Both the position numbers and the translations under genes were made by a program. A stretch of 64,000 bases of DNA from Rhizophagus irregularis. Its lineage: Eukaryota. Below are positions 30,668 through 53,965 of this stretch, piece after piece. The stretch lies in assembly GCF_026210795.1 (NCBI RefSeq), contig NC_089433.1:4092001-4156000 (forward strand), given 5' to 3'. Under the pieces are notes generated by a model. The model was not told the origin of the DNA, ran no database searches, and saw nothing but the letters and a program-made list of their open reading frames with translations. How positions within the stretch are numbered: position 1 is the stretch's first letter; each line of letters starts with the position of its first letter.

Positions 30668-31288
30668 GTCGTCGGGCTGGTAGTGTGCCTCGCTACGCTC
30701 CTCCCACCTTGGCCTCGCGGCCTCACAGTACCTACATCCCCCCTCCGTGGGGCAGGTTTACCTGCCACAGTACCATGGTCTGCCACGGTATTTTTCCACT
30801 TATTTTTTTTCTACATTTTTTCTTATATATAACTTACTATGACAACTATGGCAACTATGGCAGACTACTTAAAAACGGAATAAAAACGCGAATAAAGCCG
30901 AAATCAGACAGAATCTCCTGCCATAGTACCTGCCATAGTACGAAAAACCTTATAATAATACTATGGCAGCCTTAGTCAGCCCCTTAGACCCCAAAACCCG
31001 ATTCACGCTATGATTACCCTTTATATACTCACCTAGACCCCCAAGTAACACCCCCTATGTCCTGAACTATGGCAGCCGAACTATGGCAGCTGAACTATGG
31101 CACCCGAATTATGGCACCTGAACTATGGCACCCGAATTATGGCAGCCGAACTATGACCCCAAGTATGACCCCCTATGTCCTGAACTATGGCACCCGAACT
31201 ATGACCATCAAACTATGACCACCGAACTATAACCACTTGCCCCCGTCAGAAAAAATACATTCGGCAATTGAAGATTAGGTAACTATAA
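30668..31288 (+). repeat. Left terminal inverted repeat (621 bp)
   Basis: Reverse complement of 53405-53965; starts GTCGTCGGGCTGGTAG; contains 14-bp GAAYTATGGCASCY repeats. Confidence 0.95.
31266..31275 (+). promoter_or_regulatory. Element-specific upstream motif AATTGAAGAT
   Basis: Identical 10-mer 23-41 nt before ATGs at 31299, 38729, 47757 and 53376; variants before 32189, 48328, 48902, 50849 and 37992. Confidence 0.6.
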
Positions 31289-31298
31289 GTAACATACA

Positions 31299-31814
31299 AT
31301 GATAAACTTACACGCCGCCACTTCTCTTGCCGAAGATCTTGGTCTCGATCTTGTAGACATCTATGGAATCCGTAAATGGATCCAAATGCAGGCTTCGCCC
31401 TTCAACGACCCAGACATAGTAAGAGAGATGGTCAGAAACCTTCCGATCAAAGAATTCGGAAAACATCTCAAGATAAACAGACTCTGGTACAACGGTTGTA
31501 AAGCCAAGTTGTGGAAGCGATATAAAGAAGCTGAGGAGGTATACAAACAGGCAGTAGACTACTACAGGGAGGCCATTGGCAATTTCAATGAAGCCGATCA
31601 GAAAAAATACACTAGGTTCGCAGGAATGGTGGCAGTAGAAAGAGCTCTCCTCAGATGTGGCTTTATAACGCAAGAGTCCGACTGGGAGAAATGGACTCAA
31701 ATAACGTACAACATCCAATTGCTTAAGGAAGGCCGCACTCTTGATGACTCGGACGATGAATCAGATGATGGAGAGGTATCTCTCGATGACTCAGATGATG
31801 AGGAATACTTTTAG
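31299..31814 (+). CDS. Hypothetical helical protein with acidic tail (element ORF)
   Basis: 171-aa ATG ORF directly inside the left TIR, after the shared motif; D/E-rich C-terminus. Confidence 0.75.
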   Translation: MINLHAATSLAEDLGLDLVDIYGIRKWIQMQASPFNDPDIVREMVRNLPIKEFGKHLKINRLWYNGCKAKLWKRYKEAEEVYKQAVDYYREAIGNFNEADQKKYTRFAGMVAVERALLRCGFITQESDWEKWTQITYNIQLLKEGRTLDDSDDESDDGEVSLDDSDDEEYF

Positions 31815-31823
31815 AAGGCGGTA

Positions 31824-32144
31824 CTAATCTGTCTTTCTCTTTTTTGCTTCCTTAAGGTATTTATCAATACACTGTTTACACGCGTCATCAGCCTCTAAAA
31901 TTTTTTGCCCAAGTTTTTTGCATTGCCGATTATACGCCGTCTGATGTCTTTTAGCCGCGGTTTCTTTTTTCTTCTCCTTGGTTTTCTTTTTGATAACCCA
32001 GTCTATCCCAGTAAAAGTATTCTTATGCATCCCACAAACTACACAGTCACCATGTAAACGATAGCAGCCATTTGTGGTCATATCTTGTATTTCACTAGCA
32101 GTCTCGGTTTCCTTCTTACACTTTAGGCAGTAAAATCGTGTCAT
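31824..32144 (-). CDS. Small basic Zn-ribbon protein (DUF5679-like)
   Basis: MTRFYCLKCKK...GDCVVCG, Lys-rich tail, further CxxC; probable ATG 32144, divergent from the integrase. Confidence 0.7.
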   Translation of the reverse strand: MTRFYCLKCKKETETASEIQDMTTNGCYRLHGDCVVCGMHKNTFTGIDWVIKKKTKEKKKETAAKRHQTAYNRQCKKLGQKILEADDACKQCIDKYLKEAKKRKTD

Positions 32145-32188
32145 CTTAAGATTTGAAGTCCGAAATCTTTCCTTTAATTTGTCGTAAT

Positions 32189-33280
32189 ATGTCGCATTTA
32201 GAGAATTATTACAAATACTACAATCTCTCCGGAGTACCGGCACGAATTCTAAAAGGTGAGGAGCACTACAACCTATACAAAAAGCCCTTAAAGGAAAAGT
32301 CATCAGAGCGTCCACGAGTAGTTGTATGGAAATCAAATGCGACGCATCAGGCAGATCTCGCAGAGATGCCAGTCGACCCCAAAGGATTCCACTATTTCCT
32401 CGTAGTGGTGGAAGTCGCGGGTAAACGAGTCGATGCAGAACCCCTAAAGGATAAGACTGCAAATAGGATTCTAAACGGGTTTGTCAAAATCTACAGAAGA
32501 AATCGTATTAAGCCACCAACACACAGACTGGAGACAGACTCCGGATCAGAATTCACCAATGATCAGGTACGTGATTTTTTCCTGAACAGCCTAGGGGTAA
32601 TGATGAGGTTCGGAGAGCCAGGAAGACACAAACAGCAGTCATATGCCGAACGAGCTATCCAAGCTATTCAAGAACCTCTTCTCAAACGAATGGTGGCACA
32701 GGAGTTGAAGACTGGGGTGACATCCGTGGAATGGTCAGAAGATTTCTGTGATGTAGTTAATAAAATAGATAAACTCTGGCAAAGAAATCCCCCAGACATT
32801 CCGACTGGGTCACCCAAGGTGTCAAAAAAGACGGAACTTCTCTCTGAAGGAACGCGTGTTCGAGTAAAGTTAGATGAACCTATCTCAGTACTCGGGAATA
32901 AACTCCATGGAAAATTTCGTACAGGTGATATAAGATGGAATCCCAATATCCGTGTCATCAAAAAAATGATCCTCTCACCCGAACAGCCTCCTACGTATCT
33001 TCTTGATGGACCACACGGGCGACTAGGTGTATCCAGATGTGCATACACCCGAAAAGAGTTGCAGATTGTTCCAGAAAATGAACATCCCCCACCTAACTCC
33101 GTGATAAGAGGGCAACCCGAAAGATTTGTACCTGAGCGGATACTCCGGCATCGCATCAGGAAGGGTCAAGACCAGTATCTAGTCAAGTGGGAACGATACC
33201 CAGATACCGAAGCCACTTGGGAACCCGCTGACCGGTTGGAGGAGGATGTCCCCGATTTAATCCGCAAGTTTTGGGAATAA
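32189..33280 (+). CDS. Retroviral-like (rve) DDE integrase with C-terminal chromodomain, Maverick type
   Basis: HQADL / ETDSGSEF / YAERAIQ catalytic triad; chromodomain ERILRHR...YLVKWERYPDTEATWEP; first ATG 32189. Confidence 0.92.
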   Translation: MSHLENYYKYYNLSGVPARILKGEEHYNLYKKPLKEKSSERPRVVVWKSNATHQADLAEMPVDPKGFHYFLVVVEVAGKRVDAEPLKDKTANRILNGFVKIYRRNRIKPPTHRLETDSGSEFTNDQVRDFFLNSLGVMMRFGEPGRHKQQSYAERAIQAIQEPLLKRMVAQELKTGVTSVEWSEDFCDVVNKIDKLWQRNPPDIPTGSPKVSKKTELLSEGTRVRVKLDEPISVLGNKLHGKFRTGDIRWNPNIRVIKKMILSPEQPPTYLLDGPHGRLGVSRCAYTRKELQIVPENEHPPPNSVIRGQPERFVPERILRHRIRKGQDQYLVKWERYPDTEATWEPADRLEEDVPDLIRKFWE

Positions 33281-33294
33281 AAAATAAATATTCC

Positions 33295-34026
33295 CTATTT
33301 TTTGTCTCCTCGATTCACGTCAGAAACTATCGGGATAAAACCATTCTTCTCATTACAAGTAAGGGCGATATGTTCACGTGATTCATGGACATCATAATTG
33401 TAACGTTTCAGACACGTCCGGCTCAATCCAATCTCCCTATGCTTGTAATCGCTTAAAACCGCGAGGTCCTCAGTGATAATACAATCAGGGGTTAGTTTGA
33501 TTGACACACCTTTTACCATGCCGAATGTCCTACCAGATCCCGGAGCGCCGGATATGTTATGTGTAATACTCTTGTCGATATCCAACCCTAATTCTTCAGC
33601 GGCTTCTCTCTGAATAAAAGACGCGTTAGCACAAGTGTCTGCTAAACACTGAATTGCTATCCCATTGACCTCCCCATCCAGCGCTAAAAGATCTTTAGTA
33701 TTCTCCAAACGAGCTATGTCAATATCCATCGGGTCATCTTCCCTGATATCCTCTTCTTGTTTTTCCTCAACTAGGTCTTCTGGAATCTCCGTACTTTTAC
33801 GAGCAGACTTTAATTCTTCCCGAAGAATCTCGCGGAGTAATTTCCTAAAATCTGCAGACCTTAATAAACTTAATGAATCATTTTTGGTGACGGCTTTTAT
33901 AAGTGTAGGCTTACTCCTAGTAACCTTCACAGGAATCTTAATAGGAGTCATTTTAACTGATTTTTTTGGAACAGATTTAAGAAGTTTCGAGATACTTACA
34001 CCCTTATCCGAGTTTACTTTTTTTTT
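33295..34026 (-). CDS. Retropepsin-like aspartic protease, -1 frame relative to Gag
   Basis: GEVNGIAIQCLADTCANASFIQREAAEELGL fits the LxDTGAxxSxI region; flap ISGAPG; PMDID motif; no ATG until well inside the ORF; overlaps the gag end at an A9 run (34018-34026). Confidence 0.75.
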   Translation of the reverse strand, partial: KKKVNSDKGVSISKLLKSVPKKSVKMTPIKIPVKVTRSKPTLIKAVTKNDSLSLLRSADFRKLLREILREELKSARKSTEIPEDLVEEKQEEDIREDDPMDIDIARLENTKDLLALDGEVNGIAIQCLADTCANASFIQREAAEELGLDIDKSITHNISGAPGSGRTFGMVKGVSIKLTPDCIITEDLAVLSDYKHREIGLSRTCLKRYNYDVHESREHIALTCNEKNGFIPIVSDVNRGDKK

Positions 34027-35507
34027 GTACTTCGAACCGCACAAATCCGAAAACCACCTTCCTCATCAGGAACAATTTTCAAGTCATCAAAACTCACGGT
34101 ATTAGTATCAATATCCATAGCATCATCATTAAGATCGAGGTTTCTCATTGCTTGGGCTAATTCCAAATCATCGCGTCTATCTTTAGCCTTCTGAAGTCGC
34201 TTTGGAAATCTTTTAGACGTCTCATATCCCATAATAAGATCAATAACATGTTGATCATCCTCACTAGTCCATTCAGGAGCATCAGGGTCATCACCAACAT
34301 CATGATCTACATAACCATCATCCCAATCAGGATCCTGATGATCCTGAACAACGCGTGGCCGTGGCTTCGGCCGAACAGGTTTAATCTGTTGTCTATAGAC
34401 CGGTGGTTTACGAACTGGCTTAGATGCTTGTAATTGTTTAAATTGCGCCTGAAAATTCTTGGTAAGTTCCTCGGCTTGTGCCTTGAGCAATTCTTGTAAT
34501 CGTTTTTGAGTAATAACGTCTGTCGACCTTTGTATTACAGCACCTTCGTGTGGAGTCACGGGATGAGTATAGCCAGCTAATTCCTCTTTTTTAGCCTTTT
34601 CAATACCCTGGCGCCTTTGTAATCTATAGAACATTTCGCCCTTTCGTCGTTCAAGATCACTCAATCTATCGATTAATATATTAAGAGGTGCCACCCCGAT
34701 TCTGGAAGCTTCAATAACATTTTCCGGCAAAAGTCCTCTATAGAACTGGTCAGTAACCATGATTTGATTATATCCTACAATATCCCCAGCCCTCTCAACT
34801 CGCTTATAGTAAGATCGAACAGGTTCACCTTGTTCCTGGTAAAGGTTACTAAATCGTATTTGAAGTCTTTCTTCCACGACGGTTGGAAAATTTGTGCGCA
34901 TATGCATAAATGCTTGATCCAGGAGAATCCCCTGTAAGACTATCGGTTGATTCTGAACAGCAGCATTGAATGGACCTCCATGATCTCCCAACCCATTAAC
35001 GGGTAGATGAGTAGGACGTCCGCTCGCACGCCTCCACTGCTCTTCAACTTTAAAATTTGTTCTAACGATATCAGCGCGTGATGGGAAAAATGCGTCTCCA
35101 ATAGTTACCGCCGCATTAACCCCAACTAGAGAATATGCATGAGCAGCAGATCCAGGCACATAAGTATTAGGATGTAGTCGTCCAGCACCAGCATTTTCAG
35201 GAACAACCAAAGCTCTGAATGCTCGGCGAGTGGCACCGGCTCCACCATTTGCAGCAGCCACTAACCGAATATTCGAGAGTTCCCAATTTTTTCCAGTAAG
35301 TTCCGCATCAAACCACCTCGCCGCTTCATCTCTCATACAGCTACGAAGAACCCCCATCGCTCGCATCCGACCAGGAGGCGCACCGGCATCGTCCAATGGA
35401 TCAATACCAACGGTATTAATATACCCTAAAAAGTTATCAATAAAAAGATTAAGATCTTCATCTTCCCGACCATGAAATATGGGGGCAGCTATACCAACAG
35501 CAGCCAT
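34014..35507 (-). CDS. Ty3/gypsy-like Gag capsid protein with Ala/Gly-rich insertion
   Basis: PIFHGREDED..FIDNF...MRDEAARWF (capsid NTD); LYQEQGEPVRSYYKRV...DQFYRGLLPE (major homology region, CTD); DAMDID; no CCHC knuckle. Confidence 0.75.
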   Translation of the reverse strand: MAAVGIAAPIFHGREDEDLNLFIDNFLGYINTVGIDPLDDAGAPPGRMRAMGVLRSCMRDEAARWFDAELTGKNWELSNIRLVAAANGGAGATRRAFRALVVPENAGAGRLHPNTYVPGSAAHAYSLVGVNAAVTIGDAFFPSRADIVRTNFKVEEQWRRASGRPTHLPVNGLGDHGGPFNAAVQNQPIVLQGILLDQAFMHMRTNFPTVVEERLQIRFSNLYQEQGEPVRSYYKRVERAGDIVGYNQIMVTDQFYRGLLPENVIEASRIGVAPLNILIDRLSDLERRKGEMFYRLQRRQGIEKAKKEELAGYTHPVTPHEGAVIQRSTDVITQKRLQELLKAQAEELTKNFQAQFKQLQASKPVRKPPVYRQQIKPVRPKPRPRVVQDHQDPDWDDGYVDHDVGDDPDAPEWTSEDDQHVIDLIMGYETSKRFPKRLQKAKDRRDDLELAQAMRNLDLNDDAMDIDTNTVSFDDLKIVPDEEGGFRICAVRSTKKK

Positions 35508-36193
35508 ATCGTATTTTGTGGATGGTTGAGAGGATGTGGAGGAGGGTTCAATTGTCTAATCCGAAACCATTGTACTTGGATACGCAGAGCGGCTATTTGT
35601 TGGAAAAGTCGATTCCTAAGACGTCCCAATGTCCGAATTCCAAAAAGAACCCGATTATTGGCATATACAAGCCGATTTCGTGCCGCATCACGCTCGCCTA
35701 TAGCTCTATTACGTTCACCTATAGCTCTATTACGTTCTCCTCTCATAAGATTATATTGCTGCTGAAAACGACGATTAGTCGTCCGCATACCACCAAACTC
35801 ACGTTCCAATTCAGCCAAATTAGCTTCTAAACCAGTAATAGTATCTTGTACGTTATTTAACTCATCTTGTGTAAGACCTAACAAACCCGTTTGAACCTCG
35901 AGTTCATCTTGTAATTCATCGCGTTCTTTTCGAGATCGATCGCGTTCCGCTTTTAATATATCGTGTTCTTCGTATGTTTCTCTACAGCGATGAATTAATA
36001 AATTAAGAGCATGTTTAAGACGATGGTTGGCATTTTGTACATCTCGATTAACAACCATGCGATCACTGACAGTTAAAAAATCTGTTAGATCCTTAATTAC
36101 CGCAACTAATGGTATATTATTCATATCACGCAAATCCCTAGGAGGCGGTCCAGTAGGCTCTGAAGGAGTATAAATTGCAATTGGTGTCGACAT
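35489..36193 (-). CDS. Coiled-coil protein, probably the N-terminal part of the Gag gene
   Basis: Heptad-rich, with GERNRAI repeats; overlaps the gag ATG; one extra A in the run at 35514-35517 fuses it in frame (PQKYDMAAVG). Confidence 0.7.
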   Translation of the reverse strand: MSTPIAIYTPSEPTGPPPRDLRDMNNIPLVAVIKDLTDFLTVSDRMVVNRDVQNANHRLKHALNLLIHRCRETYEEHDILKAERDRSRKERDELQDELEVQTGLLGLTQDELNNVQDTITGLEANLAELEREFGGMRTTNRRFQQQYNLMRGERNRAIGERNRAIGERDAARNRLVYANNRVLFGIRTLGRLRNRLFQQIAALRIQVQWFRIRQLNPPPHPLNHPQNTIWLLLV

Positions 36194-36224
36194 CGTATTT
36201 AAACTAAATTAGAATAAAATTCAA

Positions 36225-37448
36225 ATGGATCTTTATGTATACAATTTGGACGAGTACACGACCGACTCGAGACAGGGTAATGAGTTTGCCCCATCATGGC
36301 CTTTCCGTCTTGCCGTAGCAGGAAGTTCTGATTCGGGTAAAACAACTATGATCATTAATTTGTTAATGGGAGACAAGAAGGCAAAGGAGGATGGCGAAAG
36401 GTACATATTATGTGATGCGGTAATTCTAGTTGGCAGATACCTCGATGAACTGAAGTGGGCAGTCGTACGTGAATTTTTCAAAGAAGAAGAAATTCCGTTT
36501 ACCGCAGTATCCCATAGTGAGATTCCAAATGTTAAGGACTTCAACTCCACCCAGGCTACTGTGGTAATCTTCGAGGATTTGATGGATGCGCCTAAAAAAA
36601 CCCAGGATCTCATCACTGGATTTTTTACACACGGGCGTCATAAAAATATCTCGTGTATCTATGTGGCCCAAAGATTCTTTACCATTCCCAAGGCTATTCG
36701 TGAAAATGTGAATTATATTTCCCTATATGGAGGTCACGGAAGTTTGACCGATACTAAGAGGATCATCCGCCAGTATACAGAAGAATCGGAGTCACTAGCT
36801 CCAGTAATCGATGACCTTACTCTACAACGCGAATTTATAGTATTTGATCTTAGAAGATCCAAGAGCGATCCGTTATCCATTCGGGTTAGATGGGATACTA
36901 GTCTCAGTTCGATCACCGATCAATCTCAGTTCGATCCTAGTTCGATCTCAGTTCAATCTCCGTTCGATCCGAGTTTGAATCCAGTTCGATCCCCGTTCGA
37001 TCCGAGTTTGAACCCAGTTCGATCGAAGTTTAGTCCTTATGGCCAGAAGGCCGTAGCTGAAGCAAAAAAGTCCTCCCAGCTAATCGAGTTTGCTCGGGAA
37101 TATCCATTGCCTAAAGAGAGAAAACACCTTCTCGTATCTGGTGTTATAGCTAAGAACGCAGATACCTGGATTAAGTACGTCTTTCGGGAAGCCTACGGAC
37201 TATCTGGTAAGACCCTGGGATCAGACTTCCAAAACTTCTTAGCGAAAGTACGGGATAGGACCACGAAGACTGAAATTCCAAAACCTGAGACCGTAAAGGA
37301 GTTATTCTCCCGGTATGAAACCCTGAAGTCTAGTCACCCTTTGGATAATAAAAAAATAATAGAAGGCATTGGAGTCCTTTTACAGATCTTTTCTAAGGGC
37401 CACATGGACCGTCGAGCATTACGAGTAGGGATCAATAGTATTTTGTAA
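36225..37448 (+). CDS. A32-like (FtsK/HerA) DNA-packaging ATPase with C-terminal extension
   Basis: Walker A AVAGSSDSGKTT, Walker B VVIFEDL, GRHKNISCIYVAQ, AIRENVNY; 11-aa repeats SPFDPSLNPVR (~36925-37025). Confidence 0.88.
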   Translation: MDLYVYNLDEYTTDSRQGNEFAPSWPFRLAVAGSSDSGKTTMIINLLMGDKKAKEDGERYILCDAVILVGRYLDELKWAVVREFFKEEEIPFTAVSHSEIPNVKDFNSTQATVVIFEDLMDAPKKTQDLITGFFTHGRHKNISCIYVAQRFFTIPKAIRENVNYISLYGGHGSLTDTKRIIRQYTEESESLAPVIDDLTLQREFIVFDLRRSKSDPLSIRVRWDTSLSSITDQSQFDPSSISVQSPFDPSLNPVRSPFDPSLNPVRSKFSPYGQKAVAEAKKSSQLIEFAREYPLPKERKHLLVSGVIAKNADTWIKYVFREAYGLSGKTLGSDFQNFLAKVRDRTTKTEIPKPETVKELFSRYETLKSSHPLDNKKIIEGIGVLLQIFSKGHMDRRALRVGINSIL

Positions 37449-37992
37449 GAATCTCGCGAAGTTCTTCCGCAGAAGCCCTAAGAATCATGGCGCTTTTTTT
37501 ACGTCCTTCGAAGTCAATCCGTAACATCCTAGCTTTTAACCCAATAGCTCCTAAGGCTCGAGAAGCAAAGTTTTTAGTCATCGGATTACTTATATGACTT
37601 ACATAGTTCTCATAGAATGTAGTAAAGGGTTCATCAATACCATCCGGGTATGTATTCCGTAAGAACTGATATAAGGCAATTTCCCCACTGTCACATCCAA
37701 TGGCTATAAGCTGTTCAAGAAGCCACTTCCTAGTATCCTCGTATGAATCTCCATCCATAATTTTCATATCCAGTCTTTGTGTGAATAATTGCGTAAAATC
37801 CGCATTACTTGCCCGACGAATAATCTGGACCAACTTATCCCTGGCAAGTCCCAAGGCTTGTAAAGGTTCACTCTCGTCACCAATCTTCTTTATAATTTGT
37901 CTATACAACACGCTGGAAAATCCTCTATATGCCGCTTTTGCAGAGAATACTCCACAGTTTTGACACTGGTTTATTAAGATTGATGTTGACAT
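37432..37992 (-). CDS. Hypothetical protein, possible winged-helix C-terminus
   Basis: 186-aa ATG ORF; N-terminal CxxC; FTTFYENY...TKNFASRAL pattern resembles the post-ATPase domain of D5-like helicases. Confidence 0.65.
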   Translation of the reverse strand: MSTSILINQCQNCGVFSAKAAYRGFSSVLYRQIIKKIGDESEPLQALGLARDKLVQIIRRASNADFTQLFTQRLDMKIMDGDSYEDTRKWLLEQLIAIGCDSGEIALYQFLRNTYPDGIDEPFTTFYENYVSHISNPMTKNFASRALGAIGLKARMLRIDFEGRKKSAMILRASAEELREILTKYY

Positions 37993-38729: not shown

Positions 38730-39078
38730 GTCTTTTTTCTGTACGTGTCTACATACCTAATTGTTATCTTCAATTTACAATAACCAAGTGACATCGTCAT
38801 CAGTCCTTGTCACAGCAAATATGGCATAGTAGCCTTTATCTTTATTAAATTTATTTAACGAACTTACAAAAATAAAATAAAATTTTCAAAGTACAAAAAA
38901 GAAAAATAAAATTAACTAAAAACAAAACTATATAGTCTCCAAAACAGTAATAAAGCTATAAAATAATTCAAAAAGAAAAATCGCATAACACTAAAACTAT
39001 CCTGATCCCCCGCCTAAATATATTTCAACCTAAGAAGAGGCAACTATGCAAACAAACCAACGAACAATGCGCCCATTA

Positions 39079-42000
39079 TTAAAATCGACACACCACCCTG
39101 CTAAAGCTGTTAGTAAGTTGCACCGTTAGACGACCCATAAAACCCGAATAGTGATTAAACCAAGGCAAACCATATTTCATCGAGTTCAATAAATAATCAA
39201 CGTCGGAGTCACGTGCGGCGTCGGAAAGGGTCGGAGGAGGTAAAGTTGAGAAAGGTAAGTACGTGGACTTTGGCAAATTTGAAGGCCGAGAAAGTTTGAG
39301 TTTATGAGTAATATTCATCGCGTCTTCCCATTTAGATTTATCATAGGAGCGCGGTAACCAAATTCGTTTTCTGATCTTCTGGATAAAGTGATTGTGGATA
39401 GCAGAAATAACCTTCATCGCAGAGTTACGTGGAATAGAAAGTTCTTCAAAAAATTCGACAAAGGATTTCGGAAGGCAGCCACAGACGAGACTATATGAAG
39501 TCCAATTTGAAGAAGAAAAGGACCAACAAGGAAGAGATTTAAATTTGTTAATAATTAAAGAGGGATCTTTCTTGACGAGATCACCAGCTTCCTGAAGTTT
39601 GTTGATAAAATGATGTTGGTAGGAGAGGAGAATCTGTTCCATAGCGATTCGTCTACATTTGCACATAAACAAGTGCATGAAATCTTCCTTGGAGTCGAGA
39701 CATGAACGACACAATAAGATGTCGATATATAAGTCCGGGCGAATTCTTTTAAGATGTTCCAAAGTAGGTAAATCTTCCAAAAAGAGTTTGAATTTGAAGG
39801 TGCGATGAGAGGAAGCATGAGCACGAGTAAAAGAAGCGTCATGCTGAGGATCCGAATTTAAAGAGAACCAGGTAAGATCCCAATCAATCACGAAATCTGA
39901 AGTAGAAGATAAAGCAATGGTAAAGTTAAACCGCGATAAATGCGTTAATCTATGCATCCACAGCATTTGCGAATATTGCTTAAATAGGCGTCGTGGGTTA
40001 GATTCGCATAAAATATCATCATATTTTAATAAGAAATCGTGAGGAGATACTTGATCCAGATCAGAAAGAAGAATCGCTGAAGAAGAGGTATGCGCAGAGT
40101 TGGCCAAAGAGTCCGCGTAGTCGTTGTAGAAATTACCAGAGTGACCTTTCACTTTGACAGCCGTGACGGACAAAAATTTTGATGAAATGAGACGTTCAAT
40201 AATAGCCCAGAGTTCAAAATTAGTGGTCTTGTAATAAAGCCTACTGTTGGAATAAGAAAAGGTAGCACATAGACGAAGACCATCTATGGCAGATTGAGAG
40301 TCAGTATGAATAGTGACCGTTGAAAAGGGAGGAGTGACTGTAAGAGCAGCATGTATAGCGGCAATTTCAGCTCTTGTAGAAGAAGGCCAATTACGAATGA
40401 TTCCATGAGCGTGAGCAGCGATAGATTGGAAAAAACCAGCGCCATCGAGAACTTGAACCCAAGACCAACCCATAGAAACATCAGGAGTGCCAAGGTTAAT
40501 TAAAGAACCATCGGTATAAAAACAATAATGATTATCAGGAGGAGTCACTAACGGTGAGGCAGCAAAAGCAAGAGGAGCAACCGGACCCAAAAAGGAAGAA
40601 GGAGAAGGAGAAGGAAGAGTAACCACATCTTCAAGTGAAAAATTAGGTTGAACGTCCAAACGACCATAATAGGATCTTACAGATTCGTCAAGGTCCGCCC
40701 AAGTAAAAGGAGAAGTAATAGTGGTGGTGTCATGTCTAATACGCTCCTGCGTGGTTGGGAGAATTAAAGATCTAAGAGGAGAAAGTTTTGGGATGATACA
40801 TAGAGGAGTAACATCTGTTGGATTGCTTTTAGTATGGGTAACCGGTACATGTTTAGAACAACCAGGACAAGGAGTGAGCGTGATAACATCATTAGGTCGA
40901 GTCACACAATCAGAGGTCCAATGGACAATCTTGCAGGAATATTGTTGTTTACTAAGTTGTTTTCCAAAAAGAGGAGAGCCATCTTCATCCAAAGTCACGA
41001 TCCATTTCATGGATTTTCTAGAGGAACCAAAAGCTGGAACCAAGTCAATGTTTGAAGGAATAGCATCGGAAGAGAATTGATCCAAGAGTAGAGAATTGGA
41101 ATTTGGGACAGTGACACATTGGTGAATGTCGCTGAACCATTTGTGCGGGAGGACTCGATGACCTTTCCTACTTGATAAATTGGACAAATAAACATTCCAA
41201 GTGATCATATGGGTTCCATGAGGCGTAATAAATTGAGATAGGTAATAGAGTTGCAAACATCTTAGACGTCGGAAGTAAGATATAAAAATTTTTGGAGTCA
41301 TCACTTCAAATAAAGGCGTATGACCGTTGGATATGGTGAGGTCAGACAAGGTTGACAGTCGAGAACGTGACAACTTGAAAGGAGTGGTGGTCAGGAGAGC
41401 AATAGTGCAAGCGATATAATCCTGTTTAAAAGCAAAAAGTTTAGACCATATAGTCCAATCTTTAACTAACAAAGGGGAAATAGGAATCAAAAAGGAAAAT
41501 TGAATTAAACGTAATCTATATAAAAACAAAATTTTCATAAAGGAAGAAGAAGAATTAGCTAACAAAAATAGATTAGTTAAATGTGTTTGTGATTGGTGAA
41601 AAAATAAATTAATCAATCCCAAGCCTTGAGATAAAAATAAAATGGAATCCGGGAGTACACGTGAAAAATTGGCCTTGTGTTTAACCAAGGAACGGATACT
41701 GCTGGTTGCCGAGGCACATTCAGATTCAGACAGGTGAGTGACTTGCATGCGATATTCCAATTTCGGAATAAGGACGGTGTTGTGTAAATAAACTACTTGT
41801 TTAGCAGATAGTTTGGCAGGGCGAACGGTGGCAGCGAAAGAGTTACATTCTCTAGCAACTTGATTTCTGACAAAATCGCGAGATCTGGCGACATTGAACC
41901 AGACGCCCAAGAAGCGGAAGGAGCTATTCATGGAAATGGGCACAATAGAAATGGAAGGAACTTCGTTCAATCCAGATAATTGCAAGTCAAACACTACTGG

Positions 42001-44700: not shown

Positions 44701-44747
44701 TAGGACACAATGATAATTATAAACGGGGAGGAGAATTAAGAAGTCAA

Positions 44748-46878
44748 TTATTGCGAAGGAGCAGAAGCTCGATCGGAGGGAGAACCACCAAGAGAAGCAA
44801 TAAAACCTTGAATGGAACCAGTGAGCGATTGTAGAGTATCTTTAATCGCTTTTTGATCTTGGATAACCGAGTTCAATTCGTCTTGCGGGGAAGGGGTATA
44901 AGTGGATGTGAGAGCTGAGTGCGGAACAATGGTAGGTGCAGATTTGGGGGGAGTGGATTTCTTAGGACCAGAAGACAAAGGAGCATTAGGATGTGGGATT
45001 AAGGTACCAGTAATTTCAGGAGGGTCTTCTTCCATCCGATCAGGTTCAGAATTGACAACAGGAGCGGAAGGAGGATTGATGCCTAAATGGGCTTCAATAG
45101 CAGATAGCCGTTGATTGTTAAGTTCAAGATGGGAGATGCGGGATTCCACACGAGCAACATCTTGTTGAAGGGTTTGCAATACGTTAAGTATCTTAAGGGC
45201 AGCCTCAAGAGCATTAGAAGAATTCGGATCCGAGAGCGGAGCACGAGCATTGGACGAAAAAGAAACAGATCTATCTTTGCCTTTTCGATTATTGGAAGGC
45301 GTGCGTCCATAAGCAGTTGAGGAGGAGTTAACAGGACCAGAGGAGGAGGGTATAGTATTGTTAGAGTTATTATTATTATTATTAGGGCGGTTAGAGTGTG
45401 AATTCGGACGTTGAGCAGAGGCAGAACGATCTCGAGATTTAGAGCGAGAGCGAGACCTAGAATTATTACGTGGAGATCTTTGTTGAGCAGGTCTTTGGCC
45501 AATATTAAAACGGTCTTTAAGGGCGGCAACAGGATCACGTGTACGTGAGCGTCCACGACGTAGATTGAGCGGGCAAGAGGTAGGAGCACAGCCGAGTTTA
45601 CCACATCGGTGGCAAAGAGCTTTTGAATCGTTGGAAGAACCCCACCGAAGAGTACGACCTTGGAATCCGATTGTTTGTTCCATAGCGGCATCCATTGTCG
45701 CTTGTGAATTGAAGGTAACATAAGCCCATGGTTTAGGTTTATATGAGTTTAAGGAAAGAGGAATATTAATAGCTTTGGCTCCATGTTCTTTAACTAATGG
45801 AGCGAGATGGATATCTTTAGTGTTAGCAGGGAGTCCAGAAAGGACAGCAACAAATTCACGACGAGCAGCTTTTTGATCCACAGAATAGTGACAGGGAGTA
45901 ACACGCAAACAAGTGGAGAAACAATAGACTGCCCATTGGGTGGTGAAACGGGCGATGGCATCGGCATGATCATAGACGATGCGGGCTTGTTGCATCTTAG
46001 CACCTTTCCTTGAATAGAGATGGAGGGAGAGCAAATTGCCAAATTTTTTAAAGTAGGATTGTAGTTGAGGTTTCGTGATGAAGAACGGTATATCGGTGAC
46101 TTGGATAGCTCGGAGATCTTCATCAGATCGGAGCTGTTTGGGATCGTACAAGTGGAATTGAAGGTCCAGAAATTCAGAGTGCGTACTACCAACACACAAG
46201 TCACGAGCCTCCGCAGTGTGAAAATGAATGATAAGACGTTTAGCGTCCCCTGAACCAGTCATACGAGCTCGACCGGTATATGATTCATAAGTTTCTAAGA
46301 ATAGATTATTAACGGCATCAATGATTGCCTTATTAGTTTTAAGTTTCTCAAGAGTTTGGGGAGCGGAGTTGGGCGCAGCCGCAGCCAGAAAATCCTGACG
46401 ATTAATGGTAATGGTGGGGAGGGATCGACAGCCTGATCGGGCGATGTACCATCATTTACGTCCATATTAAGGGACGCGTTAGGGATGAGTTATTTTCTTT
46501 GTTTCTTGGTGCATGAATAGACGCGTTAGCTCCAGAGGACGCGTCTTGGCCAGGCGCAGTGGGCGCAGCAGAATTAATCAGGGCAGATGCTTGAGTATTT
46601 TCTAGGGGAGTGCTGCGGGAATTATTTTGTTGAGGAATAGCGGTCGAAGTTGAACCAACTAATCCACCGTCAGCCAGCGCGTCGGCAACGAAATCTTCAT
46701 AGTCTTCATCCATGGAGTCTTTTGTAATGATACGGGAACGTTTTTGGGAAGTGTTATCACTATTGGAACCAGAGTTGTCAGAGAGTTGTTTTTTATTATT
46801 TTTCTTTTCTTGACGAGCAGCCTTATTACTATTAGGATTAAAGCTGCCGCCACCTCTTTTAGCAAAGTTTCTAGACAT
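44748..46878 (-). CDS. LINE ORF1 (RRM-like domains, Cys knuckle, coiled coil), two single-base shifts near 5' end
   Basis: IQVTDIPF..YFKKFG, WAYVTF, CHRCGKLGC..C; joins ATG 46878 if one base is added to the G runs at 46482-46484 and 46416-46419. Confidence 0.8.
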
Positions 46879-47364
46879 GTTAAAAGGTATGAGTTGGGTA
46901 AAATATAAGAGTTGTTAGTACATCAGTCCTTGTCACGAAACACGAGGATACCTGATGATGAGGTTACATGGTCATCAGTCCTTGTCACAAAACACGAGGA
47001 TACCTGATGAATAAGTTATTGGATTATTGGCCTAAAAAGCATTCATGGAAAAACCGTGGAATTTTTTACAGTACAGTGTATAAAAAAAGTGCTAAACTTT
47101 GAGATCGGGACACGATGTCTCGATCTAATAATTTCGATGTCATGTGACTTCATGCGGGTACGTAGATCATTTCCTTATTGGGCGATACCCGTTCCACAAA
47201 AAATCGATTTTGGTAAAAATGCGTTTGGAATCTTGTGTAACATAAATTTCCCTTTTCGGTAATTCGGGATTACGCGGTAATGCCGGCCGGATCTAAATAA
47301 TATGACTCTGCAGGGTAATTCCTACGAAAGTCAAGTACAAAATGCTTACTTCTGTTGAGTCCAT

Positions 47365-47757: not shown

Positions 47758-47866
47758 GATGTTATGTTACTTATACTATAGCTATCTTCAATTACTGTAT
47801 GCCTATTACACATGGATAAAAAATATAGACTAAATTCGTACAGGATCGTAGGATCACAGGAGCCGC

Positions 47867-48328: not shown

Positions 48329-48410
48329 GATTCTTTGTACTTTGTAATAAATATGAATCTTCAGTTACCTGTTCATTAAAACGAGAAAAAATAAATATGA
48401 ACCTCGGGGT

Positions 48411-48902: not shown

Positions 48903-48995
48903 TTGGGTATCTCGTAAGATTACATATCCCATAGGTTTATTCAATTATGCCATCACGGTATGTCAGTAAAAAATACACATACCGGTCCCTAGCAA

Positions 48996-50849
48996 TCATG
49001 TCCAGATAACTTTGTTCGCATTTTTCACATGGCAGTATCCCGCGGTTTCAAACTTGAAAGTCTTTAGAGTCGTATCTGCATTCTCTGAACAAGTGAAAAG
49101 CGCGGGGCTATCTGGCTGTTCTTCTAAAATAAATCCGTCTGTATGGATACGTCGTACTTTATCCTTGTATGGTTGAATTGCCTCAGATGTGATTTTGCGA
49201 CCACGTGCTAATAAGAATGGGGCGATCCTGGGATACTCACCTTTGAAGGGATTACCCGGGTTTGTAAACTGGAATCGCCACTGGTCGGATCCTACTGGTA
49301 TGATAGAGTCGAGTGTATGGCCCTCTGGAAATGTAAATGGGTCTGTTTGATCTGTGGTGAGTGTCTTATAATTACGCTTCCTCTGGCATAATGCTCCTCA
49401 TAATGTGTTGAGGACTCGCTTTGCCACGCGGCCAGCTACGCCACCCTGGTTTTTAATTTTGAAGAGGAAGTATACATACTCACCGAATATTACAGTTCCA
49501 GGAATTCTCGCTTCTCTATCATATATCAATGCATTTGGCTTCCCATCCTGTATTAACTGTATATTGAGACCAAGTTTTTTTGCTCGTTGTAAGTCGATGA
49601 ATGTATAGATTCCCCTTTTATTCTGTCGGAAGAGAATATTATTCCCACTTACCTTGGCACGGAATAATCCATACAAGGCATAACCCCTGTGGTCAACAAA
49701 GTTATTAAGTGTCTGGAATTTACCCCGTCTGATTGGAAAGTTCGCGTTCGATTGTTGGATACTCGGGTATAAACTTGTTGCGTCGTACTGTCTTCCATAG
49801 CCCTTCCACTCATTATCTGCCCAGATTAATCCTCCCATCATTGCATCACTTAACCACTCTGCTTCTATCGGGTCAAGAGGATCATTGGCTGGAATCCCTA
49901 CACTTAATCGTTCGAATAACCAGAGAGCCATTCTTTTGTAAGACCAGTTATGGTATGATAAGTCGATTCCTAAACCGAACTTCTTTGTAGTCTGTAAAAA
50001 GACATCCCGCTCCTCGTGGATTCTCTGATATGCTTCTTCAAGAGTTTCATATATTCCCGTTTTACGGTTTTTCTCAACAGAGATAAAGGAACTCTTGGAA
50101 TTCTTAGTTTTTTGAAACTGCGCAATTGTGCAAGACTTAACTGTTTTGCCGTTGTATATTGTGACTACATTGTTTACTCCATCTTCATGATACACAATGG
50201 GCAGATTACGCTTCCTATCTAATTTACTGGGGTGGAGTCTTCCGGGATTTAACGCGAGGGAGTAATGACCCTCAGACAGGATGAGAGTCGCACGTCTATC
50301 GGACTTACTCTTAGAGATTCGGGTAATGTCCCCCACAATATTAATTGTGAGACTTCCTGCGAGTTGTTCAACCTTGTCCATGCATGAAACTGGGATGGGA
50401 GCATCGCGATTGAGACCTAATGCCTTTTTGATATACTCAGGCTTTTCGATTGACTTTGGCATTTTAGAGAATGTGCCGTAGATATATTTCAGGCATTCAT
50501 ACAGGCAATCATTTAGCTCCCCGTTGCAACCTCCTGCGGCTGGTGGACTATCTCTCGCATAAATTATGAATTGTTCAAAATAATCAGGGTCTGCGTCATC
50601 CAGTAGTTGTGCTTCATCATAATGGTCTAATAGTGAAAAGAGGCTGGCTGGTTGGTTTCCTGATGTCCATCCACTGGGTTTCCAGTTTTCATAGGGAAGT
50701 AGGATCTGGAACTTTCTATCTGGAAATCGCGCCTGAAGAGTCTGACCGAGTCTGGTGATAGCTCCTCTGGAAAAGCGGGCACCAGAATATTGAAGTTCCT
50801 TGATGTCAGGTCATGTTGGTAAAGTGCGGGCGATTCTTGAGTATTGCAT
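48996..50849 (-). pseudogene. Compact family-B DNA polymerase (617 codons) with two in-frame TGA stops
   Basis: One frame from ATG 50849 to TGA 48996; MMGG, motif A YDATSLYPS, motif B KRVLNTL*GAL, motif C RIHTDG; stops at 50811-50813 and 49398-49400. Confidence 0.85.
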
Positions 50850-50932
50850 TTTTATGTATATGATTTGTCTTCAAATATAAATAATAACTTTCTATATATA
50901 CGAAAAAAAAAAGAAATAATCTCAAATAGTGC

Positions 50933-53376
50933 TTACAATATGTCGTTGATAACGCCCTCAGTATCCTCTTCGTTCCAGTCATCGATGATTCCATTGGCGG
51001 CCTCCCATTCACGTTCCATATCAGTTTTTGGACGTTCCTCGGGGATCTCTCGCGCTTTTCCCTTATCTGCCCTCATAGTTTCATACCCAGAGGGGGTGGG
51101 AATAATCTTGGCATTACGATTCTCCTTGTATACTCTTATTAAATCCGCGAGTTCTTTACGGCTAGGTGTTTTAGATAAGTATCCATTATATTCGATCCAG
51201 TCCTTGAAGCGGTCTACTACTTCCATAAGGTAGTACTGGTACTCATCCTCAATACGCGTTGTGGGACATTCCTCTACTTCAAACGCGAGTATTTCCCAGT
51301 CATAGTCATCTGACGCATCTTGATACTTGGCCCATAATTCCTTACCTGTATTGTAGAGATCATTGAAGACCTGGTCCTTTAAATTTTTAACCCACGGTTT
51401 GCGATCCCATCGGTGTCTTTCATGCCAAGCCCAGTGCGCTCGAGTGCCTTCCTTTGGTTCAGGATCCCGGTCGACTTCTGGTTCTGTGTCAGGTTCTGGG
51501 ATAAGTTGCTCTTTGGGAGCCGGTACTACTACAGGTTCTGTAGAAAATTTAGAATCTGCGAGGGATTCAGATTTTGTGGAAGATTCTGCGGGTTGTTGCT
51601 CAAGAACTGGGTCCACGGTTGTAGAATCCGAGTCTGATAACAAGTCGTCTAAAACGTCATAGTCATCTGGCTCGGGGGTGGGTTCTTCTTGGTCAGGTTC
51701 CTCGTCAGATAGATAACAATCTGAGAAGCTATCTATAGGTTCATCGGTGTTTGACTCACTAGTGTTTACATCGGGATCCGGTTGTTCTTCCCTTAACCCT
51801 TGTGGACGTTCTTTTAAGTGGTCAGGCTTGGGTGGAAGCGGTGGAGGAGTCTTGCGAATTACAGGTGCGGGTTTTTCTTCAGCGGGTTCGGGTTTTTCCT
51901 CTGTGGGTTCGGGTTTTTTCTCAGCGGGTTTATCCTCTGCAGGTTTCTCGGCAACTAACTCTACTTCCTCTACTGGTGCTTCCTGTACGTCTTGTACATC
52001 TTGGATTACTTTACTAAAATTCTCCGCGATTTTTGCTTTATCTAGTATGTAATAGTTTATTCGGGTACCTGAGCGGCTTACACGCATTTTGGGGGCGAAT
52101 TGTTTAATCTCCATACCGAATTTATTGTCACTTAGTGTTTTGTTTTCACCCTTCTCACTGCACCAGTTTTGGTAAGTACTATAGAAATTTGTACACGGGA
52201 TTTCAAGTGTATCACAATTGTCGGGCCACATTATTTCAAGGTAATATTGTATAAAACGCTGGGGATTCGGGATACTTGCTTCGATTAACTCCCGTTTCAT
52301 TTGAATATCAGGAATAGATCGGGGATTGAAGCCAGTTAAGTCTCGGCTAAGTAGATAGGACATGAAGGAACTGGCTGTATCCAGATTTTCTAATACTTTT
52401 ACGAGAGAACTGAAGTATTCTCTATTGCCCTTATATTTGGCTGAGACGTTGAGAGCTACAAATCTTTCATCCCCCATTTCTATACGGATTGGCATAGCAT
52501 GATTACTGAGGATCATGTAGCCAGCAAAGTCATCAATAACCTTCACATCTATCCCCTTTTCCTCGATAGAGATGTAAGGCTCGGTGATTAAACTCTTGAG
52601 TCGGTTGTTTGCCCCATGCCATTCCTTGCCTGACATATCGCATTCATTGAGGATGATAAGTTTTTTGGCATGAACAGCCGCATTGAACCTTCCCATTACA
52701 TCTTCAAGACGCGTAGTGGAAAGGAAGTTTTCACGGCCGAGAATACGTTCTCTGATAAAATCGGTTAAGATATTCTTACCACATCTGGGGGGACTGCGCA
52801 TGATAATTGCTGTACCGGGTTTTTTGTCTGGATTTTGAATAAGGAATGCGAGCCAGTTGAGGATGTATGTGGTTAACTGCTTGTCCTCCGCACACCATAC
52901 CTCATGAACGTGTCGGATGATTGGATTAACTAGATTTAGTTTGATGCGCTCAGCGGGTTGGGCCCTGAAACCTAGGAAGAGATTGAAGAATTCAGGATTA
53001 TACTTTGGTGCGTTTGGGGGATAAGGCATGAAGTTTACATCTGTATAACAGATCTTTGCAATTGAGGCTTGGAGAAGAAGATCCTTTAATTTGGTGGATG
53101 TGGTCGCATCACTGTCTTCTCCGGTATCTGACCGAATAATTACCTTGTGCTTAGTAGAAATCCCCTTGAGATCTGCGGCGAACTCGAAGTATATACTTCC
53201 ATTGTAAGCCTTCTTTTTCTAATCCACATGCCGGATTTTGTGGTGATGAAAGCCACAGAAGCCGAGATTGCTGAATTGACGCTTTCTTTCGTGTGTGTAC
53301 CTACACATTTTTTAAGAAGGTCATCGTAGAAGAAACGGTTGTTGGGGTTAAAGATTGCTGGAACTTGAGCGGCCAT
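50933..53376 (-). CDS. SF3/D5-like helicase with long acidic/Pro-rich tail; one frameshift near 53215
   Basis: FNLFLGF, YILNWLAFLIQNP, Walker A SPPRCGKN, Walker B IILNE, motif C ILSNH, RFVAL; adding one base to T5 (53214-53218) joins ATG 53376. Confidence 0.85.
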
Positions 53377-53404
53377 TTTTTGTTCTATTAAATCGAGTAC
53401 TAAT

Positions 53405-53965
53405 TTATAGTTACCTAATCTTCAATTGCCGAATGTATTTTTTCTGACGGGGGCAAGTGGTTATAGTTCGGTGGTCATAGTTTGATGGTCATAATTCGGG
53501 TGCCATAGTTCAGGTGCCATAATTCGGGTGCCATAGTTCAGCTGCCATAGTTCGGCTGCCATAGTTCAGGACATAGGGGGTCATACTTGGGGGGTCTAGG
53601 TGAGTATATAAAGGGTAATCATAGCGTGAATCAGGTTTTGGGGTCTAAGGGGCTGACTAAGGCTGCCATAGTATTATTATAAGGTTTTTCGTACTATGGC
53701 AGGTACTATGGCAGGAGATTCTGTCTGATTTCGGCTTTATTCGCGTTTTTATTCCGTTTTTAAGTAGTCTGCCATAGTTGCCATAGTTGTCATAGTAAGT
53801 TATATATAAGAAAAAATGTAGAAAAAAAAATAAGTGGAAAAATACCGTGGCAGACCATGGTACTGTGGCAGGTAAACCTGCACCACGGAGGGGGGATGTA
53901 GGTACTGTGAGGCCGCGAGGCCGAGGTGGGAGGAGCATAGCGAGGCACACTACCAGCCCGACGAC
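53405..53965 (-). repeat. Right terminal inverted repeat (561 bp)
   Basis: Ends CCAGCCCGACGAC; about 60 bp fewer internal repeats than the left TIR. Confidence 0.95.

What the first reader, a model, noticed from the sequence alone, without database searches (positions are those of the whole stretch)
31266..53427. Shared element-specific promoter-like motif AWTTGAAGAT before most genes
AATTGAAGAT occurs at 31266 (+) and at 38766, 47784 and 53418 (-), 23-41 nt before ATGs; 31266 and 53418 are the same TIR position. Variants: AACTGAAGAT (48357), ATTTGAAGAC (50867, PolB), ATTTGAAGTC (32151, integrase), AATTGAATAA (48937), ATTTAAAGAT (38055). Three sites extend to ACAG(G)TAWYTRAAGAT. Short UTRs, no introns and a fixed motif look like a viral transcription programme. 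The AATTGA core resembles the mimivirus early promoter AAAATTGA. Inference: transcription by a helper giant-virus polymerase, as in virophages, is possible.
Basis: partly seen in the sequence, partly recalled or inferred. Interest (0 to 1): 0.7.

Follow-up and report, generated by a model that had tools for sequence, protein, structure and literature searches.

The report
Giant-virus-style promoters in a fungal Maverick
A virus-like jumping DNA element in a plant-root fungus has the same short signal just before almost every gene and a run of T after most genes, a layout conserved in distant relatives that likely serves as start and stop signals for a giant-virus-type RNA polymerase, which the element would have to borrow from a helper virus that nobody has yet isolated.

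Summary
The motif is real and more extensive than reported. It lies in a 23.3-kb Rhizophagus Maverick/Polinton (30668-53965). The core AWYTRAA precedes 13 of 14 element genes (shuffles 2.4). The exception is the protease, which sits in the -1 frame behind Gag. In 46 metagenomic relatives (16 lineages) WWTTRAA ends 19-37 nt before the ATG in 35 of 59 starts (shuffles 7.3). The GAT tail is lineage-specific, and exact AAAATTGA is absent.

Two further signals appeared:
- A TA dinucleotide at a fixed place, 17 nt after the core (24 of 45; shuffles 7.4), where poxvirus spacing predicts the start site.
- T6 runs after stops (48 of 72; shuffles 9.6), avoided inside the relatives' coding strands, like asfarvirus terminators.

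No RNA polymerase was detected in the element, and it is nearly silent in poly(A) RNA. Best reading (0.62): a giant-virus-type transcription programme read by a helper, plausibly the asfar-like virus endogenised in R. irregularis. This is not shown. No start site was mapped, the G is not invariant, a held-out test in that endogenous virus failed, and host promoters were barely sampled. New variant of a known kind.

The parts
30668..53965 (.). Maverick/Polinton-like element, about 40% GC in a 25% GC host region; TIRs about 620 nt starting GTCGTC; 5-bp target-site duplication ACTAC
31266..31275 (+). promoter core in left TIR, 23 nt before ORF 31299-31814 (171 aa, unknown)
32151..32160 (+). core, 28 nt before rve integrase-chromodomain gene 32189-33280
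33279..33303 (.). back-to-back T6 runs on both strands at the junction of the convergent integrase and protease genes (putative terminators)
33295..33951 (-). retropepsin-type protease ORF; only gene without the core; lies in the -1 frame behind Gag at an A-run
34014..35507 (-). Gag-like protein with retroviral CA fold; core at 35544-35553 inside the upstream ORF, 36 nt before ATG
35489..36193 (-). coiled-coil ORF; core at 36217-36226, 23 nt before ATG; relatives mostly use a TTAGA variant
36197..36206 (+). core variant ATTTAAA, 18 nt before A32 packaging ATPase gene 36225-37448; both divergent cores fit in or at the edge of a 31-bp intergenic gap
37432..37992 (-). CxxC plus D5-C-terminal-like (winged-helix region) protein; core at 38055-38064, 62 nt before ATG
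38766..38775 (-). core, 36 nt before ORF 38145-38729 (weak 2C_adapt hit); T9 run after this ORF at 38080-38088
38814..46920 (-). nested non-LTR retroelement (EN-RT ORF, RRM ORF) between 16-bp target-site duplications; its two starts checked lack the core; excluded from motif counts
47784..47793 (-). core, 26 nt before F-box-like ORF 47365-47757
48357..48366 (-). core AACTGAA, 28 nt before ORF 47867-48328; T6 after it at 47818-47823
48937..48946 (-). core, 4 nt before first ATG of ORF 48411-48932 (a second in-frame ATG follows 30 nt on); T6 after it at 48386-48391
50867..50876 (-). core, 17 nt before PolB-like gene (ATG 50849 to 48996, interrupted in this copy); T6 after it at 48968-48973
53418..53427 (-). 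core in right TIR, 41 nt before D5-like helicase gene (53376-50933, in two frames in this copy); T10 after it at 50903-50912

Best explanation
The motif is the upstream half of a conserved two-part signal (WWTTRAA, then TA 17 nt later) that precedes the genes of Glomerales Mavericks, paired with T-runs after the genes; together they likely act as promoter, initiator and terminator for a nucleocytovirus-type RNA polymerase that the element would borrow from a co-infecting helper, plausibly an asfar-like virus. Mechanism, with status. Shown: the core at 19-37 nt, the fixed-spaced TA, T6 after stops and its avoidance in the relatives' coding strands, no polymerase domain detected in the element, near-silence in host poly(A) RNA. 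Inferred: a viral initiation factor binds the core; transcription starts at the TA about 19-20 nt after the TGA (or TAA), giving 5' leaders of about 12 nt; it ends at the T-run; each gene gets its own mRNA except protease, made by -1 frameshift from Gag. Inferred: integrated copies stay quiet until the helper infects, as with mavirus and Gezel-14T.
For: Conservation: 46 loci with ATPases 36-88% identical to the window's. The window-derived AWYTRAA is in 45 of 73 dereplicated starts (shuffles 18.1+-3.5, antisense 21). De novo EM on the relatives alone returns WATTRAA (log-likelihood 105 vs 34-37 for two shuffles). With one start per gene and lineage, 35 of 59 have WWTTRAA at 19-37 nt (7.3+-2.5), in 16 of 16 lineages. 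Internal control: protease and overlapped gag starts 1 of 12. Initiator: TA at position 24 from the core start in 24 of 45 sites from 11 gene families (7.4+-2.5; host-flank sites 11%). Vaccinia UCE geometry puts the start about 19 nt after TGA (PMC6211774). The implied leader is median 12 nt vs 14 for ASFV early genes (PMC7163114). Terminators: T6 after 10 of 12 window ends (1.1+-1.0) and 48 of 72 relative ends (9.6+-2.7; antisense 18), but after 1 of 20 gag/coiled-coil ends. T6 in coding strands is 11 vs 25.5+-3.7 under synonymous shuffling, with no such depletion in the LINE or host ORFs. ASFV ends about two thirds of genes at 6-7 T (PMC7458399); pacmanvirus has AAAATTGA before and WWTTTATTTTTTAWW after genes (PMC11788076). 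A helper candidate exists: the asfar-like GEVE with RNA polymerase and capping genes in R. irregularis (PMC10640383). Poly(A) reads: depth at most about 2 over the element bins vs 98-312 at the LINE 3' end.
Against: No transcription start or end was mapped. The G that is invariant in poxviral early promoters is present in only 19 of 58 relative sites (30 TTAAA, 8 TTAGA, 1 TTGGA; 15 of 73 starts had none), and the 5' A-run is missing. GEVE check by eye: discovery rows gave ATG at 19-26 nt in 9 of 22 vs 1 of 22 controls, but held-out rows gave 2 of 17 vs 2 of 8; pooled p=0.057. AAAATTGAAT counts (33) are not above same-composition words (10, 29, 11, 30). One of two GEVE hits read in full heads a tandem family that looks host-derived. 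Window coding sequences alone show no T6 depletion (3 vs 3.2). Silence is equally explained by host silencing, and only the left half of the element was examined. The host control is one gene family.
Confidence: 0.62

Rival explanations
1. The signal is a general Glomeromycotan RNA polymerase II core promoter (AT-rich TBP-like box plus initiator) that the compact element uses like host genes, and the T-runs are host 3'-processing elements.
For: TTAAA variants resemble TATA-like boxes (recalled). TATAWAW is modestly enriched upstream (31 of 73 vs 18.3+-3.2). A tandem family inside the GEVE that looks host-derived (SAM-like, recalled; possible splice donor at its end) has AAATTGAA before its ATG. 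No paper on R. irregularis core promoters was found.
Against: 1 of 7 host BTB-BACK-TLD paralogs has the core at 19-37 nt, the chance rate in host DNA being 13%. The nested, well-transcribed LINE lacks it. The TATA words at 17-22 lie about 12 nt from the ATG, too close for a TATA box (25-30 nt spacing recalled). Element coding strands avoid T6 but not AATAAA; the LINE shows the reverse trend (AATAAA 0 vs 2.4+-1.0).
Confidence: 0.15
2. An element-encoded DNA-binding protein recognises the core and recruits host polymerase II in the nucleus, as a private regulon without a helper.
For: ORF 37432-37992 is conserved in relatives and is a stand-alone paralog of the D5 C-terminal winged-helix region with an N-terminal CxxC (hhalign E 5.5e-5, probability 66). 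Mavericks expanded recently in R. irregularis (PMC8647823), while the full GEVE was found in 1 of 5 strains.
Against: It does not explain the fixed initiator spacing, the very short implied leaders (10 of 45 at 5 nt or less) or the T-run avoidance. The protein's own gene carries the core, so something else must start the cycle. Asfar-like polB genes occur in all five strains.
Confidence: 0.13
3. The signals are inherited from a viral ancestor and are now vestigial or weakly read; the element spreads without a helper or is dying.
For: This copy has interrupted PolB and helicase genes and a LINE insertion; near-silent in RNA; the core is degenerate at the G.
Against: Core, spacing and T-run avoidance persist across 16 lineages whose Gag-like proteins are only 31-46% identical to the window's, which implies selection in the recent past.
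Confidence: 0.08
4. The motif is a chance AT-rich word or acts at the RNA or translation level.
For: Intergenic DNA is AT-rich, and WWTTRAA is common in host DNA (14 per kb).
Against: Composition-preserving shuffles, antisense controls, positional peak and independent relatives all reject chance. The core lies upstream of the predicted start, so it would not be in the mRNA.
Confidence: 0.02

Closest known systems
Gezel-14T (PgVV) polinton-like virophage of Phaeocystis globosa virus (bioRxiv 10.1101/2022.07.28.501842, passages)
   Same: Polinton-related element using a giant-virus early-type promoter core before replication genes; monocistronic genes with AT-rich spacers; depends on the helper for transcription.
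   Different: Gezel has the AAAATTGA core at five genes, jelly-roll capsids and a tyrosine recombinase, with helper dependence shown. Here nearly all genes carry a degenerate core, the capsid candidate is Gag, and no helper is shown.
ASFV EPM/Inr/poly(T) and vaccinia UCE; pacmanvirus promoters and its transpoviron (PMC7163114, PMC7458399, PMC6211774, PMC11788076, passages)
   Same: AT-rich core with TGA, TA initiator at fixed short distance, very short leaders, T6-7 after about two thirds of genes.
   Different: No 5' A-run; G not invariant; those viruses encode their own polymerase.
Mavirus / EMALEs (PMC8547959, passages)
   Same: Integrated rve-integrase elements with shared upstream motifs taken as a helper signature; retrotransposons nested in them.
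   Different: Mavirus uses the late TCTA promoter of CroV and has jelly-roll capsids.
Yeast virus-like elements, UCS ATNTGA (PMC6211774, passages)
   Same: Fungal linear DNA elements with a short conserved motif 20-40 nt before every ATG.
   Different: ATNTGA itself is not enriched here (3 of 14; 9 of 73); VLEs are cytoplasmic and encode their own polymerase.
Glomerales Mavericks/Polintons (PMC11952901, PMC8647823, passages; PMC8502044 section 3.4)
   Same: The element family is known, and a MELD element with Gag/retropepsin and D5-like helicase is labelled in Fig. 5 of PMC8502044 (legend only; organism not visible).
   Different: No promoter, initiator or terminator analysis and no helper hypothesis appeared in the passages read or in searches.

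Membership tests
Polinton/Maverick | long terminal inverted repeats and short target-site duplication | tested here: met
   TIR about 620 nt; 5-bp duplication
Polinton/Maverick | rve integrase | tested here: met
   Pfam rve 33.3 bits (cutoff 32.6) plus chromodomain
Polinton/Maverick | protein-primed PolB | tested here: inconclusive
   PF03175 E 0.001, below cutoff, in 1 of 2 relatives scanned; model pLDDT 51, phi29 polymerase only at E 0.28; no PDB sequence hit
Polinton/Maverick | A32-type packaging ATPase | tested here: met
   Pox_A32 E 5.8e-11
Polinton/Maverick (polintovirus form) | double jelly-roll major capsid protein | tested here: inconclusive
   No Pfam hit in 18 element ORFs; the 497-aa candidate has a retroviral CA fold; the other unknown ORFs were not folded
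Polinton/Maverick (polintovirus form) | adenain-type cysteine maturation protease | tested here: not met
   The protease ORF is an aspartyl (retropepsin) protease
NCLDV early promoter (UCE/EPM/AAAATTGA) | A-run before TGA (AAAATTGA) | tested here: not met
   0 of 73 relatives, none in 13 window genes
NCLDV early promoter (UCE/EPM/AAAATTGA) | invariant G of TGA | tested here: not met
   G in 10 of 13 window sites but TTGAA in 19 of 58 relative sites
NCLDV early promoter (UCE/EPM/AAAATTGA) | fixed spacing to a TA initiator about 19 nt after TGA | tested here: met
   TA at position 24 in 24 of 45 vs 7.4+-2.5; sequence only
NCLDV early promoter (UCE/EPM/AAAATTGA) | mapped start site and binding by viral early transcription factor | not testable with these tools
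   Too few reads
Asfarvirus-type poly(T) terminator | T6-7 shortly after stops, avoided in coding strand | tested here: met
   the window's own coding sequences show no depletion; 3' ends not mapped
Virophage-like helper-dependent element | no own RNA polymerase | tested here: met
   No polymerase or capping domain in 18 element ORFs by Pfam
Virophage-like helper-dependent element | promoter shared with the helper | tested here: inconclusive
   GEVE rows by eye: discovery positive, held-out negative, counts not enriched
Virophage-like helper-dependent element | activation upon helper infection | not testable with these tools
   No infected sample available
Yeast VLE UCS | ATNTGA before each ORF | tested here: not met
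   3 of 14 vs 1.9; 9 of 73 vs 10.1

The most novel reading that the evidence does not exclude
Glomerales Mavericks are satellites of a still-unisolated asfar-like giant virus of mycorrhizal fungi. They are transcribed by its polymerase from a graded promoter code (TTGAA, TTAAA, TTAGA by gene class) and package a PolB-replicated DNA genome in a retroviral-type Gag capsid made with a frameshifted retropepsin. They would be virophages with a retrovirus shell, and their recent expansion would record ongoing giant-virus infection of these fungi.
Probability: 0.25. Interest if true: 0.88.

Novelty: new variant of a known kind. Interest (0 to 1): 0.62.

Why it matters
PMC10640383 states that no dsDNA virus infecting fungi was known as of 2023, yet R. 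irregularis carries asfar-like sequences. If these abundant, recently expanded Mavericks need a giant-virus polymerase, their spread is indirect evidence of current infections. Induction of their genes would then be a sensitive marker for finding the helper in cultures or root metatranscriptomes. It would also extend helper-dependent transcription from virophages and polinton-like viruses of protists to a classical integrase-bearing Polinton in a fungus. It gives exact start and stop predictions that one RACE experiment can test.

Tried and rejected
No whole genome is held for this window, so other copies and host promoters could not be scanned.

Four IMG/VR scans found no relatives (ATPase twice, PolB, Gag).

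RNA run search: no RNA holder listed. Four raw-read runs laid on the left half gave too few reads for start sites. The right half has no read data.

Yeast UCS ATNTGA and exact mimivirus AAAATTGA were rejected as the motif. The GAT tail was rejected as part of the family consensus. The antisense run of the EM is uninformative, as it returns the reverse complement.

Whole-sequence counts of a G word against its C control do not detect the motif even in the relatives (60 vs 64), so the flat 8-mer count in the GEVE (119 vs 124) says nothing. A seeming 33 vs 10 excess of the 10-mer vanished with three more control pairs. Two attempts to locate the GEVE RNA polymerase gene by short words failed.

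PolB fold and PDB searches were uninformative. The ESM Atlas gave no usable hit for ORF 38145-38729 and only weak leads for ORF 37432-37992; Pfam and PDB gave none for that family.

The original Polinton paper could not be opened, so it may hold details unseen here. Earlier-finding look-ups were empty.
Full report
Setting. The window is 21-31% GC host-type DNA with a 39-44% GC block from about 30.7 to 54 kb. The block is bounded by inverted repeats of about 620 nt, from 30668 to 53965, with a 5-bp duplication. It encodes an rve integrase with chromodomain, an aspartyl protease, a Pox_A32 ATPase, a D5-like helicase, an F-box-like protein and several unknown proteins, and carries a nested EN-RT retroelement. 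The best ATPase homologues are Rhizophagus irregularis proteins at up to 98% identity, on many different contigs. The PolB-like gene is supported only weakly: PF03175 below cutoff in 1 of 2 relatives scanned and a low-confidence model. It is interrupted in this copy, as is the helicase. This is a Glomerales Maverick/Polinton, a known and recently expanded family (PMC11952901 and PMC8647823, passages).

The observation. Without the LINE the element has 14 genes. AWYTRAAGAY is upstream of 7 of 14 (shuffles 0.08) and the 7-mer AWYTRAA of 13 of 14 (shuffles 2.4, antisense 3). These patterns were chosen with the data in view, and two sites are the same TIR position. The one gene without the core is the protease. 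It overlaps the end of the Gag-like ORF in the -1 frame at an A8-9 run in 9 of 9 junctions examined, so it probably needs no promoter.

Independent test. A metagenome scan with an ATPase alignment returned 46 loci with the same gene set. Of 177 candidate ORFs, 142 had supported N-termini and enough upstream DNA. After removing near-identical upstream regions 85 remained: 73 test starts and 12 controls (protease, gag starts buried in the upstream ORF). AWYTRAA was in 45 of 73 (shuffles 18.1+-3.5), WWTTRAA in 54 of 73 (26.1+-3.7) and in 1 of 12 controls; AWYTRAAGAY in 3 of 73, AAAATTGA in 0 of 73, ATNTGA in 9 of 73, at chance. De novo EM on the relatives alone gave WATTRAA. With the loci clustered at 80% nucleotide identity into 16 lineages and one start kept per gene and lineage, 35 of 59 had WWTTRAA ending 19-37 nt before the ATG (7.3+-2.5, maximum 16), in all 16 lineages. 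The 19-37 window was set after seeing the histogram. The variant tracks the gene: ATPase mostly TTAAA (11 of 16), PolB and F-box mostly TTGAA (3 of 4 each), the coiled-coil gene TTAGA (8 of 15). Shared ancestry alone could produce that, so temporal classes are a guess.

A second element. Among the 59 starts, 45 had a core (WWTTRRA, 19-48 nt). Aligned on it, TA begins at position 24 in 24 of 45 (7.4+-2.5; 11 gene families; 11% of 719 host-flank sites), and TATA starts at 17-22 in 24 of 45 (6.3+-2.3). The position was found in these data; the window's 12 sites show TA at 24 in 4 and TAT at 15-20 in 7 (2.3+-1.3). The vaccinia early element is 15 nt with TGA after position 5 and a start 12 nt past its end, and 11 nt in yeast VLEs (PMC6211774, passages). 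That puts the start at core position 23-24, within a base or two of the A of the TA. The ASFV early initiator is TA (PMC7458399, passages). The implied leaders have a median of 12 nt against 14 for ASFV early genes (PMC7163114, passages).

3' signals. T6 follows 10 of 12 true gene ends in the window (1.1+-1.0). In relatives, 134 ends were reduced to 92: T6 follows 48 of 72 ends (9.6+-2.7; antisense 18) but 1 of 20 gag or coiled-coil ends. These ends were not curated for frameshifted fragments. The convergent integrase and protease genes have T-runs on both strands of their short gap. Under synonymous shuffling T6 is depleted from the relatives' coding strands (14 vs 34.3+-4.6; 11 vs 25.5+-3.7 at lineage level). 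It is not depleted in the LINE (4 vs 5.4), host ORFs (17 vs 13.8) or the window's own 14 ORFs (3 vs 3.2, low power). AATAAA is not avoided in element genes. ASFV ends about two thirds of its genes at 6-7 T, and pacmanvirus has a T-run motif at 221 gene ends (PMC11788076, passages).

Who reads it. Pfam finds no polymerase or capping domain in 18 element ORFs. In three poly(A) runs and one further run, depth over 31200-38591 was at most about 2, against 98-312 at the LINE 3' end in the poly(A) runs. No start could be mapped, and silence fits host silencing as well. R. irregularis strain 4401 holds a 1.5-Mb asfar-like endogenous virus with both large polymerase subunits and a capping enzyme, and asfar-like polB genes occur in all five strains studied (PMC10640383, passages, discussion and supplement). 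I searched its sequence in the supplement with short words and scored 60-nt rows by eye, keeping rows with at least 22 nt visible. Discovery: ATG 19-26 nt after AAATTGAA in 9 of 22 rows vs 1 of 22 for a control word. Held-out: 2 of 17 vs 2 of 8; pooled 11 of 39 vs 3 of 30, p=0.057. Word counts were not enriched. Of two hits read in context, one opens an uninterrupted ORF of about 207 codons with T-runs on both sides. The other opens a 98-codon ORF of a tandem family that looks host-derived (family label recalled). The shared-promoter test is therefore inconclusive. The only host control was one paralog family: 1 of 7 starts with the core at 19-37 nt, chance 13%.

Mechanism and rivals. Best reading (0.62): core, initiator and T-run form a nucleocytovirus-type transcription unit read by a borrowed polymerase. 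Helper-type promoters are documented for Gezel-14T (bioRxiv 2022.07.28.501842, passages), mavirus/EMALEs (PMC8547959, passages) and the pacmanvirus transpoviron. The layout works like an early promoter but fails two defining features, the A-run and the invariant G, so it is not filed as one. Rivals: a general host core promoter (0.15); a private activator, for which ORF 37432-37992, a paralog of the D5 C-terminal region, is a candidate (0.13); vestigial signals (0.08); chance (0.02).

Side result. The 497-aa ORF has a retroviral capsid fold. The top 37 VIA-align rows are all Gag/CA-type chains, best Z 10.5, rmsd 2.4 over 84 residues; Foldseek probability 1.0, E 0.016 to the PEG10 CA domain; model mean pLDDT 59. 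No RT match was found in the 46 loci. A Gag/retropepsin MELD element is already labelled in the Fig. 5 legend of PMC8502044 (section 3.4 read, figure not visible), so this architecture is probably known.

Novelty. Searches found no description of promoters or terminators in fungal Mavericks. The library lacks most subscription papers, and the original Polinton paper could not be opened. Also seen as passages only: bioRxiv 2026.06.19.733378, PMC11296320, PMC5294985, PMC4028283, PMC11075540. Supplements of the other papers were not read and may list such motifs. Verdict: real feature, new variant of a known kind, interest 0.62.

Noticed in passing
window 33295-36193 (-) and loci such as L010, L015, L016, L026, L041: Conserved coiled-coil ORF, Gag with retroviral CA fold, and retropepsin in the -1 frame at an A-run sit beside the A32 ATPase in place of jelly-roll capsid and adenain; no RT match in any of 46 loci. 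Probably the element type in Fig. 5 of PMC8502044.
   Followed up: partly
window 38814-46920 (-): Non-LTR retroelement with 16-bp target-site duplication inserted in a short tandem repeat about 40 nt upstream of a promoter core; its 3' end is heavily represented in poly(A) RNA from other copies.
   Followed up: partly
window 37432-37992 (-): Conserved stand-alone paralog of the D5 helicase C-terminal region with an N-terminal CxxC; candidate DNA-binding regulator or origin-binding protein.
   Followed up: partly
L022 2151-5681 (-), L021 3152-3670 (-): A different, 1176-aa ORF with an endonuclease VII domain and a PolB-like C-terminus (recalled likeness) lies next to the same ATPase type, suggesting polymerase exchange within the family.
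   Followed up: no
window 49398-50849 (-), L011 8626-10512: The PolB-like protein is only about 630 aa, has an N-terminal Cys/His motif pair that recalls OTU proteases (recalled; weak Foldseek rows only) and little room for a proofreading domain.
   Followed up: partly
window 31040-31235 and 53459-53593: Tandem 14-bp repeats inside both TIRs, just upstream of the TIR promoter core; possible origin or protein-binding array.
   Followed up: no
window 36194-36224: Coiled-coil and ATPase genes diverge from a 31-bp gap (42-79 bp in most relatives) that holds both cores on opposite strands, each near the other gene's start.
   Followed up: yes
window 2300-22840 and 58500-62570: Host tandem array of at least nine BTB-BACK-TLDc paralogs that lies on both sides of the element.
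   Followed up: no
window 63186-63488: 123-nt inverted repeat pair 57 nt apart, possibly a MITE.
   Followed up: no
proteins P0121-P0240: Many public R. irregularis gene models fuse the Gag-like ORF and the protease (up to 870 aa), likely through predicted introns across a frameshift site.
   Followed up: no
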